IMG/VR virus record: IMGVR_UViG_3300021378_000034
Location: 1-52,387 of that record
DNA: 52,387 nucleotides
Reading direction: 5' to 3' (one strand)
Source: a virus
Taxonomy: Duplodnaviria > Caudoviricetes
The translations under genes and the position numbers were made by a program. The notes below the pieces were generated by a model, which made no database searches, was not told the origin of the DNA, and worked only from the letters and a program-made list of their open reading frames with translations. Each line of letters begins with the position of its first letter. Position 1 is the first letter of the stretch. Below are positions 51,518 through 51,983 of the stretch, one piece after another.

Positions 51518-51589
51518 TTGCGGGAGAAGGAATCGAACCTACGACCTTTGGGTTATGAGCCCAACGAGCTACCTCTGCTCTATCCCGCA
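51518..51589 (-). tRNA. tRNA-Met(CAU), initiator-like
   Basis: Cloverleaf with TGCGGGA/TCCCGCA acceptor, GAGC/GCTC D-stem, TTGGG-CTCATAA-CCCAA anticodon arm (three G:C pairs) and TTCGATT T-loop. CCA is not encoded. Confidence 0.93.
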
Positions 51590-51594
51590 TTAAG

Positions 51595-51662
51595 TGGTGA
51601 CCAACCTGTGAGCAATGTCGTAAGCTTCTCACGGTGAATGCAACGTGTGACTAATTTCACCA
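51595..51662 (-). ncRNA. Candidate small structured RNA
   Basis: TGGTGA/TCACCA closing stem and inner ACC-GTGAG/CTCAC-A-GGT; fills the gap between two tRNA-like genes. Confidence 0.35.
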
Positions 51663-51670
51663 GTCTGTAG

Positions 51671-51749
51671 TGGACGTGGCAGGATTCGAACCTGCGTTCA
51701 AGTTAGTGTGGCTTTCGCCTCCTATTTCTTGTCTTACCATTTCACGCCC
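51671..51749 (-). ncRNA. Mini tmRNA-like RNA (tRNA-like domain only)
   Basis: GGGCGUG/CACGUCC-A acceptor with G3:U70, stemless D-loop AAAUGGUAAGA, CAAG/CUUG helix, AAC linker and perfect T-arm GCAGG-UUCGAAU-CCUGC. Confidence 0.75.
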
Positions 51750-51753
51750 TTAT

Positions 51754-51902
51754 GAGAGGCACCAGTTGTGGACAGGTAGTTAACTAGTATTGTCATTTAT
51801 CCACACTTTCTGTTTCGTACTGGTACAGTAGAACGCCATTTTTACTTGCCATTACACTATTGTACCGATCTACCTAACGTGACCTGTATGCCGCCGCCTC
51901 TC
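51754..51902 (-). ncRNA. Candidate 149-nt structured RNA
   Basis: GAGAGGCG/UGCCUCUC closing stem with inner GGUACA/UGUACC and UGUGGAUA/UGUCCACA hairpins. Confidence 0.5.
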
Positions 51903-51920
51903 TGCCAGCTATTCACTTAT

Positions 51921-51983
51921 GTGTGTGTAATACACTTCCGTACGTTCACATATGTCCGTCGACAGTCGACACCACATACACAC
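51921..51983 (-). ncRNA. Candidate small structured RNA
   Basis: GUGUGU/ACACAC ends with an inner UAUGU..GUCG/CGAC..ACAUA hairpin. Confidence 0.3.

What the first reader, a model, noticed from the sequence alone, without database searches (positions are those of the whole stretch)
51518..51983. Tightly packed ncRNA cassette in the early region
Seen: about 470 bp, GC-richer than the flanks and without a credible ORF. It is tiled by five self-closing elements separated by only about 4-18 nt: 51921-51983, 51754-51902, the mini-tmRNA, 51595-51662 and tRNA-Met. It lies downstream of promoter copy 3 and the zinc-finger gene. Both tRNA-like genes end in discriminator A followed by CTA. Inference: a polycistronic RNA precursor in which RNase P/Z cuts at the tRNA-like units also release the unknown RNAs, giving an early RNA toolkit aimed at host translation.
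Basis: partly seen in the sequence, partly recalled or inferred. Interest (0 to 1): 0.75.

Follow-up and report, generated by a model that had tools for sequence, protein, structure and literature searches.

The report
Phage operon of five small RNAs
A marine phage packs five folded RNA genes head to tail, among them an initiator-type tRNA and a stripped-down, tag-less copy of the bacterial ribosome-rescue RNA, and related phages shuffle these RNA parts like building blocks.

Summary
Window 52005-51515 (minus strand) has no credible ORF, is GC-richer than its flanks, and is tiled by five structured RNAs.

- tRNA-Met, with initiator hallmarks, is certain.
- The "mini-tmRNA" is a tRNA-like-domain-only (TLD-only) tmRNA: G3:U70, A73, T arm, stemless D loop, and a 23-nt hairpin where the tag region would be. 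It belongs to a family with 60 distinct members in the DNA I fetched.
- The three unknown RNAs (E1, E2, E4) are real. Each has relatives with compensatory base changes. None matches Rfam.

New here is a positional grammar. The pseudoknotted E2 ends -1 to 4 nt before the 5' end of a TLD or tRNA in 33 of 34 distinct copies. E4 starts -1 to 3 nt after a TLD or tRNA 3' tail in 5 of 12 pattern hits (2 of the 12 are probably chance hits). "Cargo" hairpins are exchanged between three carriers: the TLD arm, the E2 arm and the E1 base.

Best reading: one early transcript cut at the tRNA-like units by host RNase P and 3' enzymes. The TLD engages host SmpB, AlaRS and EF-Tu. Processing and function are inferred, not shown.

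A TLD-only phage tmRNA is already known (mycobacteriophage DS6A). This scan has also found the mini-tmRNA family and similar cassettes on other DNA.

The parts
52206..52239 (-). Promoter-like motif, copy 3 (ACAAAC.AAA.ACGA-N8-GGATAATA). Its -10-like part overlaps the first ATG of the zinc-finger ORF.
   Evidence: Aligned with the copies near 51327 and 49765. The same motif recurs several times per related locus. Promoter activity was not tested.
52012..52215 (-). 67-aa C4 zinc-finger ORF. It may start at the second ATG, 52200. It precedes the RNA cassette in relatives.
   Evidence: ORF list. No Pfam or PHROG match. Homologous DNA lies upstream of the cassette in relatives. The TraR/DksA-like label is my recollection of the CxxC-N17-CxxC pattern and comes from no call.
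51904..52005 (-). E1: a basal 5-bp helix (52005-52001 with 51908-51904) and a conserved irregular arm carry a roughly 60-nt three-way-junction core (51983-51921).
   Evidence: Core: RNAalifold on 21 sequences gives 20 pairs, 10 with compensatory changes. Basal helix: at least 5 of 6 positions pair in 19 of 21 distinct copies, with different sequences; the window has one A.G mismatch. Single-sequence z = -0.45. No Rfam match.
51754..51902 (-). E2: a 149-nt pseudoknotted RNA. Outer stem 51902-51891 with 51765-51754; H2 51886-51882 with 51777-51773; H3 51804-51800 with 51772-51768. A variable arm sits between CACGUUAG and AAACAGAAAG.
   Evidence: 32 sequences: 92.3% of cells paired, against 32-53% with partners slid; 11 pairs changed on both sides; 0 of 500 shuffles reach the observed values. 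z = -2.33. It ends 4 nt before the TLD. 33 of 34 distinct copies abut a TLD or tRNA. Metatranscriptome contigs match it exactly.
51668..51749 (-). TLD-only tmRNA-like RNA. Acceptor stem with G3:U70, discriminator A (51671) then CUA, stemless D loop, P2 helix capped by a GAAA hairpin, T arm. No tag reading frame and no pseudoknots.
   Evidence: Rfam tmRNA 33.4 bits, below gathering. My own model R1 scores it 74.9 bits. On the family alignment 93.4% of cells pair and 13 of 16 pairs change on both sides. z = -3.38. Compared with two real Bacteroidota tmRNAs.
51590..51667 (-). E4: three-way junction. Outer helix 51665-51662 with 51602-51599; hairpin A 51661-51656 with 51638-51633; hairpin B 51632-51628 with 51612-51608. 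Hairpin B carries a conserved 15-nt loop (51627-51613).
   Evidence: RNAalifold on 7 sequences: 15 pairs, 6 with compensatory changes. Further variants keep hairpin B and its loop. E4 begins 1 nt after the TLD's CUA tail. z = +0.42. No Rfam match.
51515..51589 (-). tRNA-Met (CAU) with initiator hallmarks, discriminator A (51518) followed by CUA.
   Evidence: ARAGORN. Rfam tRNA 68.5 bits. The three G:C pairs at the base of the anticodon stem, A11:U24 and U1:A72 are read by eye; that these mark initiators is recalled.
51359..51514 (-). 51-aa ORF whose ATG follows the tRNA's CUA tail directly. It is the last gene before the next promoter-like motif (about 51360-51327).
   Evidence: ORF list. DNA is 79-96% identical in relatives. 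No family match.

Best explanation
The region is an early phage operon of structured RNAs punctuated by tRNA-like units.

Transcription (inferred): one transcript starts at the promoter-like motif near 52206. It runs through the zinc-finger gene, E1, E2, the TLD, E4, tRNA-Met and a 51-aa ORF.

Processing (inferred): host RNase P cuts at the 5' ends of the TLD and the tRNA. That cut also makes the 3' end of E2 and releases E4 from the tRNA. Host 3' enzymes remove the CUA tails and the CCA-adding enzyme completes the ends. That 3' cut also frees the 5' end of E4.

Products: an initiator-type tRNA-Met; a tag-less mini-tmRNA that should be charged with alanine and bound by host SmpB and EF-Tu; and three stable RNAs of unknown partner.

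Most likely role of the TLD (inferred from the DS6A precedent): it occupies SmpB and so blocks or redirects trans-translation during infection.

E2 and E4 are best read as modules whose ends are defined by the neighbouring tRNA-like unit. E1, and the variable arms of E2 and the TLD, are carriers for interchangeable small hairpins.

Shown here: the structures, their conservation, the positional grammar and the module exchange.

Inferred only: co-transcription, the processing enzymes, alanylation, SmpB binding and every function.
For: tRNA-Met.

TLD:
- It has tmRNA-type features and is the best Rfam clan match.
- My model R1 finds 77 matches of 50 bits or more in the window plus 179 fetched loci.
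- Of 60 distinct sequences, 56 have G3:U70 and 51 end in ACUA; lengths are 72-188 nt.
- The acceptor stem, P2 and T stem all covary.
- Two genuine Bacteroidota tmRNAs share G3:U70, the GA after the acceptor stem, the D-loop GG, GAC at the start of P2 and the T arm.
- No SmpB or CCA-adding enzyme gene lies in the 52 kb, so host factors would be needed.

E2: the structure is supported on 32 sequences. 33 of 34 distinct copies end -1 to 4 nt before a TLD (27) or a tRNA (6).

E4: covariation. It starts -1 to 3 nt after a TLD or tRNA tail in 5 of 12 distinct pattern hits; 2 of the 12 are probably chance hits in other contexts.

E1: covariation in the core and in the basal helix.

Order: E1, E2, TLD and/or tRNA-Met, E4 recurs across relatives.

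Transcription unit: no terminator-like site on the minus strand within 50800-52387. Promoter-like motifs flank the unit.

RNA libraries: marine metatranscriptome contigs match E2 exactly, 110 nt and 55 nt, in two runs of one study. In a second study one 229-nt contig spans E1 plus E2. In a third a 100-nt contig covers the TLD.

Precedent: the DS6A TLD-only tmRNA is said to inhibit the endogenous tmRNA in E. coli (passages of PMC4131195, and PMC11915505).
Against: - No RNA 5' or 3' end was mapped. The RNA evidence is assembled contigs from RNA libraries, which may contain DNA and cannot show ends, strand or level.
- E1 and E4 do not fold better than shuffled sequence (z = -0.45 and +0.42).
- Helix H2 of E2 rests on a single covarying pair; the other four never vary.
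- E4 was aligned from only 7 sequences.
- The TLD scores below Rfam's tmRNA gathering threshold.
- 4 of 60 TLDs lack G3:U70.
- The base before the TLD is A. As I recall, bacterial RNase P prefers U there.
- Some close relatives (L001, L007) carry E1, E2 and tRNA-Met but no TLD or E4, so those two are dispensable.
- The promoter is only a repeated motif.
- The record is a linear fragment estimated 81% complete, and the cassette lies about 400 nt from its end.
Confidence: 0.6

Rival explanations
1. The TLD is a cheap, tag-less ribosome-rescue factor, not an inhibitor. With host SmpB it enters stalled ribosomes, donates alanine and helps free ribosomes from broken host mRNAs, so that they can translate phage messages.
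For: The structural evidence is the same as for the decoy reading. CDS-less tmRNAs also exist in jakobid mitochondria and some plastids. The authors of the 2025 tmRNA database paper take these to be still useful, because SmpB is retained (passage of PMC11915505). An initiator-type tRNA beside it would fit a 'more translation capacity' theme.
Against: The one tested phage example (DS6A) is reported to inhibit tmRNA, not replace it. With no resume or stop codon, it is unclear how the ribosome would be released. Nothing here tells the two readings apart.
Confidence: 0.2
2. E1, E2 and E4 have no function of their own in trans. They are cis-acting leader and trailer structures that protect the precursor, order its processing or present the tRNA-like units to the processing enzymes. 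The shared hairpins are only stabilising filler.
For: E2 and E4 are tied to the ends of tRNA-like units. Their variable arms tolerate wholesale replacement. No antisense target for the conserved E4 or E2 loops exists in the phage genome.
Against: E2 keeps long, nearly invariant unpaired stretches and a pseudoknot across 32 sequences. That is more than a protective stem needs. The same cargo hairpins are conserved in three different carriers. E2-matching contigs in two RNA runs have far higher depth (83 and 156) than contigs over the neighbouring ORFs (3-20). The tool warns that such depths cannot rank genes.
Confidence: 0.3
3. E4, and perhaps E2, is a self-cleaving ribozyme that makes the end of the adjacent tRNA-like RNA, as theta (HDV-like) ribozymes are proposed to do for phage tRNA 3' trailers.
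For: E4 starts -1 to 3 nt after the tail of a TLD or tRNA-Met. Theta ribozymes sit within 5 nt of tRNA 3' ends in phages predicted to infect mostly Bacteroidota, tRNA-Met is among their main partners, and only 4.5% of those tRNAs encode CCA (PMC10879173, section 7 and passages).
Against: A loose HDV-like descriptor finds nothing at E4 or directly after either tRNA-like gene. Its only hits start in the GU-repeat of E1 and contradict the covariation-supported fold. The region gave no match to any ribozyme family of Rfam at E up to 10. The covariation-supported fold of E4 is a plain three-way junction with no nested pseudoknot.
Confidence: 0.08
4. The tRNA-like pieces are remnants of integration sites (copies of a host tmRNA or tRNA 3' end), and the rest is non-functional spacer.
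For: tmRNA genes are common integration sites and leave gene fragments (passage of PMC4131195).
Against: Both halves of the TLD are present and covary. There are 60 distinct versions. An exact 25-mer of its 3' part occurs in only 12 contigs among one genome for each of 185,579 species, all in metagenome-assembled genomes and none in a chromosomal tmRNA that I saw. No tyrosine integrase gene lies in the 52 kb. The spacers themselves covary.
Confidence: 0.02

Closest known systems
'TLD only' (CDS-less) tmRNA of Mycobacterium phage DS6A (tmRNA Website; Hudson, Lau and Williams 2014, PMC4131195; tmRNA database 2025, PMC11915505)
   Same: It is a phage-encoded RNA that is little more than the tmRNA tRNA-like domain, with no tag reading frame. 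It is proposed to act through SmpB. I read passages of both papers.
   Different: The host phylum differs (marine Bacteroidota-type phage rather than a mycobacteriophage). I did not compare the sequences. Here the domain belongs to a large family whose P2 arm carries exchangeable inserts of 23 to about 130 nt. It sits in a fixed cassette with E2 as leader and E4 as trailer. CCA is not encoded.
Bacterial tmRNA (Rfam RF00023)
   Same: Acceptor stem with G3:U70 and A73, GA after the acceptor stem, stemless D loop with GG, P2 helix starting GAC, T arm.
   Different: No mRNA-like domain, no resume or stop frame, no pseudoknots. 82 nt against 371-400 nt for the two Bacteroidota tmRNAs I fetched. Below the gathering score.
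RNA C and RNA D of the phage T4 tRNA region
   Same: Small stable RNAs of unknown role transcribed from a phage tRNA gene cluster (passage of PMC3014915). That the T4 cluster is processed by RNase P is my recollection.
   Different: No sequence or structure comparison was made here. The T4 cluster holds eight tRNAs (recalled). This cassette holds one tRNA and one TLD, with a strict leader and trailer grammar.
Theta (minimal HDV-like) ribozymes next to phage tRNAs (Kienbeck et al. 2024, PMC10879173)
   Same: An RNA element directly 3' of a phage tRNA, often tRNA-Met, in phages of Bacteroidota whose tRNAs lack an encoded CCA.
   Different: E4 does not fit an HDV-like fold and has no Rfam ribozyme match. 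Theta ribozymes were found mostly in gut phages; this family comes from marine samples.
GOLLD and ROOL RNAs of phages and prophages
   Same: Structured non-coding RNAs of unknown function encoded near phage tRNA genes. One GOLLD lies downstream of a Met-tRNA in a marine sample (passages of bioRxiv 10.1101/2024.12.08.627333).
   Different: Those are 500-800 nt ornate RNAs that form multimeric cages. E1, E2 and E4 are 78-149 nt and match neither Rfam family.

Membership tests
tRNA (RF00005), initiator type | Cloverleaf with CAU anticodon | tested here: met
   ARAGORN tRNA-Met(cat). Rfam 68.5 bits against a gathering score of 29.
tRNA (RF00005), initiator type | Three consecutive G:C pairs at the base of the anticodon stem, and A11:U24 | tested here: met
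   Read by eye from the alignment: UUGGG/CCCAA stem and GAGC/GCUC D stem. That these features mark initiators is recalled, not from a call.
tRNA (RF00005), initiator type | Mismatch at position 1:72 (C1xA72 in bacteria) | tested here: not met
   The window has U1:A72, a weak pair. Some relatives (for example L001, L063) have G1 opposite A72.
tmRNA (RF00023) | tRNA-like domain: acceptor stem with G3:U70, A73, T arm, D loop without a stem, P2 helix | tested here: met
   G3:U70 in 56 of 60 distinct family members.
tmRNA (RF00023) | mRNA-like domain with a resume codon and a tag reading frame ending in a stop | tested here: not met
   Only 23 nt lie between the P2 strands. ARAGORN calls no tmRNA in the window. 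Among the window and 179 loci it calls one tmRNA (L019); its tag frame lies within the insert that also holds the E1 module.
tmRNA (RF00023) | Pseudoknots PK1-PK4, and a score at or above Rfam's gathering threshold (47 bits) | tested here: not met
   33.4 bits. The model's 314 central positions are deleted.
TLD-only (CDS-less) tmRNA, as in phage DS6A | The tmRNA tRNA-like domain alone, phage-encoded | tested here: met
   The class is described in PMC4131195 and PMC11915505.
TLD-only (CDS-less) tmRNA, as in phage DS6A | Alanylation, SmpB binding, inhibition of trans-translation | not testable with these tools
   Needs biochemistry. Only the identity elements can be read from the sequence.
Theta / HDV-like ribozyme | Cleavage site within 5 nt of a tRNA 3' end | tested here: inconclusive
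   E4 begins -1 to 3 nt after the CUA tail of a TLD or tRNA in 5 of 12 pattern hits. No cleavage site is known.
Theta / HDV-like ribozyme | Nested double pseudoknot (P1, P1.1, P2, P3) with a catalytic C in J4/2 | tested here: not met
   My loose descriptor finds no hit at E4 or after either tRNA-like gene. The covariation-supported fold is a three-way junction. No Rfam HDV-family match at E up to 10.
GOLLD, ROOL, Y-RNA-like and other described tRNA-associated or tRNA-like RNAs in Rfam 15 | Match to the family's covariance model | tested here: not met
   Only tRNA reaches gathering in the window and in 12 related loci totalling 131 kb. At E up to 10, nothing plausible covers E1, E2 or E4.
T4 RNA C / RNA D | Sequence or structural homology | not tested
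   No T4 sequence was fetched. The resemblance is by genomic setting only.

The most novel reading that the evidence does not exclude
The cassette is a combinatorial RNA display system. Three processing-competent carriers hold interchangeable cargo hairpins that phages swap under selection. The carriers are the alanine-accepting TLD, the pseudoknotted E2 leader and the E1 basal arm. The cargoes would be decoys or aptamers against host factors. On the TLD they would be carried by SmpB and EF-Tu to stalled ribosomes, or offered as bait to defence proteins that read tRNA- or tmRNA-shaped RNA. Candidates include the SmpB-like domains predicted in CoCoNuT systems (PMC10542128).
Probability: 0.12. 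Interest if true: 0.85.

Novelty: new variant of a known kind. Interest (0 to 1): 0.6.

Why it matters
Phage tRNA clusters have long been known to hide small RNAs of unknown role (T4 RNA C and D; GOLLD and ROOL). This cassette is compact and highly conserved, and it has a readable grammar: a leader module, a tRNA-like unit and a trailer module.

It also has a clear first experiment. Does a tag-less mini-tmRNA, widespread in marine flavobacterial-type phages, shut down or replace host ribosome rescue?

The exchange of the same small hairpins between three different RNA carriers suggests an RNA-level arms race, or a natural tRNA-scaffold system for expressing small RNAs.

E1, E2 and E4 are three candidate new RNA families with covariation support and no Rfam entry.

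Tried and rejected
Nearest named phage. Cellulophaga phage phi10:1 is the closest named relative (primase/helicase 44% identical). It lacks the cassette. Model R1 gives only weak matches there, and they overlap its annotated tRNA-Tyr and tRNA-Phe.

Named phage records. A blastn of 51300-52387 against 50,697 phage records matched only the tRNA-Met part in all 40 listed records (54 records matched; 14 were not listed). Records near the window's own genome may be left out of that collection.

Antisense targets. The complement of the conserved E4 loop and of the E2 loop occurs nowhere else in the window beyond chance.

Tag peptide. I looked by eye for a conserved short reading frame in the TLD inserts. 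Frames differ between relatives, so I dropped the idea. There was no formal test.

HDV-like fold. The only hits are in the GU-repeat of E1; I take them as artefacts.

RNA runs. Bins without cover are not used as evidence of anything. Contig depths are cited only as a weak hint, because the tool says they cannot rank genes.

Neighbouring proteins. Pfam and PHROG scans of the small neighbouring ORFs gave nothing useful.

Not in print. Searches turned up no description of E1, E2, E4 or of this cassette. One paper lists 'one tmRNA gene' in Cellulophaga phage Calle without detail (PMC8776804, passages). Supplements were closed and may hold more. I did not read Mao et al. 2009 (the DS6A experiment); it is cited through.

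Unused tools. Complex prediction, structure prediction, the large protein searches and the protein atlas were not used.
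Full report
WHAT THE WINDOW IS

The window is a whole IMG/VR virus record of 52,387 bases. It is linear and estimated 81% complete. Its primase/helicase is 44% identical to that of Cellulophaga phage phi10:1, and weaker matches are to other phages of Flavobacteriia. It is therefore a marine Bacteroidota-type phage. The finding lies on the minus strand about 400 nt from the end of the record.

CHECKING THE OBSERVATION

- Composition: GC is 0.40-0.52 across 51500-51999, against 0.19-0.35 and 0.27-0.32 in the flanks.
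- ORFs: none is credible.
- tRNA-Met(CAU), 51589-51517: found by ARAGORN and Rfam (68.5 bits).
- tmRNA-like RNA, 51749-51668: the best Rfam clan match is tmRNA with its 314 central positions deleted, at 33.4 bits, below the gathering score of 47.
- Both tRNA-like genes end in discriminator A followed by CUA.
- Single-sequence folding is better than shuffles for the TLD (z = -3.4), E2 (-2.3) and the tRNA (-1.95). It is not better for E1 (-0.45) or E4 (+0.42).
- Three copies of the promoter-like motif ACA.A..AAA.ACGA-N8-G(G/T)ATAATA lie near 52206, 51327 and 49765, so the cassette sits between two of them.
- No terminator-like site was found on the minus strand.

RELATIVES

Two searches of IMG/VR gave the first 33 related loci: one with a neighbouring 159-aa protein and one with an exact 23-mer of the TLD. 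Four motif scans raised this to 179 loci. Many of the 14-mer hits are chance matches. They served as background in the model searches.

THE TLD

I aligned 25 distinct copies (A1) and folded each with the acceptor and T stems fixed. The 5' 17 nt and the 3' 30 nt are nearly invariant. The middle is an insert of 23 to about 130 nt. In 24 of the 25 copies the fold closes the insert with a helix right next to the constant ends, and that helix has a different sequence each time. For the remaining copy (L031) I found a 4-bp closing helix only by eye.

A covariance model built from A1 (R1) finds 77 matches of 50 bits or more (42, 35). It also finds weaker 43-50-nt forms without the P2 arm.

On the model-fitted alignment (53 matches, 43 distinct rows), 93.4% of cells pair, against 40-51% when partners are slid. 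13 of 16 pairs change on both sides, and 0 of 500 shuffles reach this. An alignment fitted to a model leans towards that model's structure.

Among 60 distinct TLDs:
- 56 have G3:U70;
- 51 end in ACUA;
- lengths run from 72 to 188 nt.

Two genuine tmRNAs from Bacteroidota metagenome-assembled genomes (371 and 400 nt) share with the phage TLD G3:U70, the GA after the acceptor stem, the D-loop GG, GAC at the start of P2, the T arm and A73. One of them also lacks an encoded CCA.

An exact 25-mer of the TLD's 3' part occurs in only 12 contigs of the 185,579-species genome collection. All 12 are from metagenome-assembled genomes. The TLD is therefore not a copy of a known host tmRNA end. The 52 kb holds no SmpB, CCA-adding enzyme or tyrosine integrase gene.

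E2 (51902-51754)

On 32 sequences (A2) I tested three helices:
- a 12-bp outer stem;
- H2 (CAGGU with ACCUG);
- H3 (GUGGA with UCCAC), which crosses H2.

92.3% of cells pair, against 32-53% when slid. 11 pairs change on both sides, and 0 of 500 shuffles reach the observed values. H3 has three pairs with changes on both sides. H2 has only one (AU 16, UA 15, UG 1) and four invariant pairs, so H2 is the weaker part.

Long unpaired stretches are nearly invariant: CACGUUAG, AAACAGAAAG and GGAUAAAUGAYAAUACUAG.UA.CUACC. An arm of variable length and sequence sits at one fixed point.

E1

The core, 51983-51921, folds in RNAalifold as a three-way junction. On 21 sequences it has 20 pairs, 10 of them with compensatory changes; one pair shows CG 11, UA 5, AU 5. 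It includes an invariant hairpin closed around GAAG.

In the free-standing form, a conserved irregular arm and a 5-bp basal helix enclose the core, giving 52005-51904. The basal helix pairs with different sequences (GCAGG/CCUGC, GCUAG/CUAGC, GCCGG/CCGGC and others). At least 5 of 6 positions pair in 19 of 21 distinct copies. The window copy has one A.G mismatch.

E4 (51667-51590)

Pattern searches gave 12 distinct hits. I judge 2 of them to be chance matches in other contexts. RNAalifold on 7 sequences gives a three-way junction:
- a 4-bp outer helix (GACU with GGUC);
- hairpin A, a 6-bp stem with five pairs that change, and two alternative loops;
- hairpin B, a 5-bp stem around a conserved 15-nt loop, AAGCUUA.GACAUUG.

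Of 15 pairs, 6 have compensatory changes.

THE GRAMMAR

I annotated every locus with R1 matches, ARAGORN tRNAs and motif patterns.
- E2 ends -1 to 4 nt before a TLD (27 copies) or a tRNA (6 copies) in 33 of 34 distinct copies. The exception has a weak mini-TLD 72 nt downstream.
- E4 starts -1 to 3 nt after the tail of a TLD or tRNA-Met in 5 of the 12 hits.
- 2 further E4 hits lie 56 nt downstream, by a fixed-offset estimate that ignores their longer hairpin A.
- 3 E4 hits have no tRNA-like unit upstream, and 2 are the probable chance hits.
- The common order is zinc-finger ORF, E1, E2, TLD and/or tRNA-Met, E4. The window carries all five RNAs.
- Close relatives L001 and L007 have E1, E2 and tRNA-Met only.

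MODULE EXCHANGE

Of 39 distinct TLD inserts of 35 nt or more, 25 have look-alikes outside any TLD.
- The E1 core sits free-standing in the window but inside the TLD arm in L019, L028, L074, L112 and L119.
- One hairpin is shared by the TLD arm of L088 and L164 and the variable arm of E2 in L160.
- Another is shared by the TLDs of L031 and L158 and the E1-type basal arm of L160.

The window's TLD has the same conserved arm (AAGAAAUAGGAG...CACACUAACUU) as L119, but it is capped by a GAAA loop instead of E1.

EXPRESSION

Only assembled contigs of public RNA libraries were available.
- In two marine metatranscriptome runs of one study, a 110-nt contig (51786-51895) and a 55-nt contig (51761-51815) match E2 without a difference. 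Their depths are 83 and 156.
- Contigs over the neighbouring ORFs in the same runs have depths of 3-20.
- In a second study a 229-nt contig covers 51760-51988 (E1 plus E2) with one difference.
- In a third study a 100-nt contig covers the TLD with four differences and one gap.

The tool states that such libraries can hold DNA and that contigs show no ends, strand or level. I count this as a weak hint that the RNAs are present.

WHAT IS KNOWN

- Hudson, Lau and Williams list mycobacteriophage DS6A as 'TLD only' and note that a similar molecule strongly inhibits tmRNA, perhaps by titrating SmpB (passages).
- The 2025 tmRNA database paper repeats that the DS6A form inhibits the endogenous tmRNA in E. 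coli. It also reports CDS-less organellar tmRNAs (passage).
- T4 transcribes two small RNAs of unknown role, RNA C and RNA D, from its tRNA region (passage).
- GOLLD and ROOL are phage RNAs often found near tRNA islands (passages).
- Theta ribozymes sit at tRNA 3' ends in phages of Bacteroidota (section 7 and passages).

E4 does not fit an HDV-like descriptor. Rfam 15 gives only tRNA at gathering in the window and in 12 related loci, and nothing plausible for E1, E2 or E4 at E up to 10.

EARLIER NOTES OF THIS SCAN

I looked these up after my own analysis. They describe the same mini-tmRNA family with a swappable arm, and similar cassettes, on other genomes. They agree with what I found and name the same closest relative, DS6A.

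VERDICT

The polycistronic, tRNA-punctuated reading is the best explanation (confidence 0.6), but it rests on anatomy and conservation, not on mapped RNA ends.

The TLD is a new member of a known kind. E1, E2 and E4 are candidate new RNA families. The leader and trailer grammar and the exchange of cargo hairpins among three carriers are what is new here.

Noticed in passing
window 51515-51589 (-): The phage tRNA-Met looks like an initiator. It has three G:C pairs at the base of the anticodon stem and A11:U24, with U1:A72 in the window. Some relatives (L001, L063) have G1 opposite A72. The phage may supply its own initiator tRNA.
   Followed up: partly
window 52012-52215 (-): A 67-aa ORF with a CxC...CxxC zinc-finger pattern that reminds me of TraR/DksA-type RNA-polymerase-binding proteins (recalled). 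It precedes the RNA cassette in relatives. It has no Pfam or PHROG match. The -10-like part of the promoter motif overlaps its first ATG, so the real start may be the second ATG at 52200, giving a near-leaderless mRNA.
   Followed up: partly
L014:4684-4727, L033:6076-6125, L016:3958-4007, L017:4289-4338, L026:2211-2260, L124:8714-8763, L156:7471-7513, L162:5445-5487: 43-50-nt 'mini-TLDs': an acceptor stem plus T arm joined by a short D-loop-like linker, with no P2 arm at all. They score 26-35 bits with model R1. The one I read (L014) lacks G3:U70.
   Followed up: no
L011, L012, L013, L016, L024, L026, L033 (TLD copies): A second TLD subtype has a longer conserved P2 (GACCGAGACGUGGUAACAGUA ... 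GAAUCCAACCGAGUCAUGGUAACGC). A large conserved internal loop flanks the variable hairpin.
   Followed up: no
L157, L165, L169, L175: Some related contigs carry two TLD genes 1.5 kb or less apart. In several contigs tRNA-Gln(UUG) follows the cassette about 750-1000 nt downstream.
   Followed up: no
window 51514 and relatives: The ATG of the next ORF follows the tRNA's CUA tail with no spacer. Cutting the tRNA 3' end would therefore leave a leaderless mRNA for the 51-aa membrane-like protein.
   Followed up: no
L019:4285-4470: ARAGORN calls this 188-nt TLD a tmRNA with the tag ERTEVYYIC*. The tag frame lies within the insert that also holds the E1 module, so I take it to be spurious. Automatic annotation of 'tmRNA' in flavobacterial phages may stem from such calls.
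   Followed up: partly
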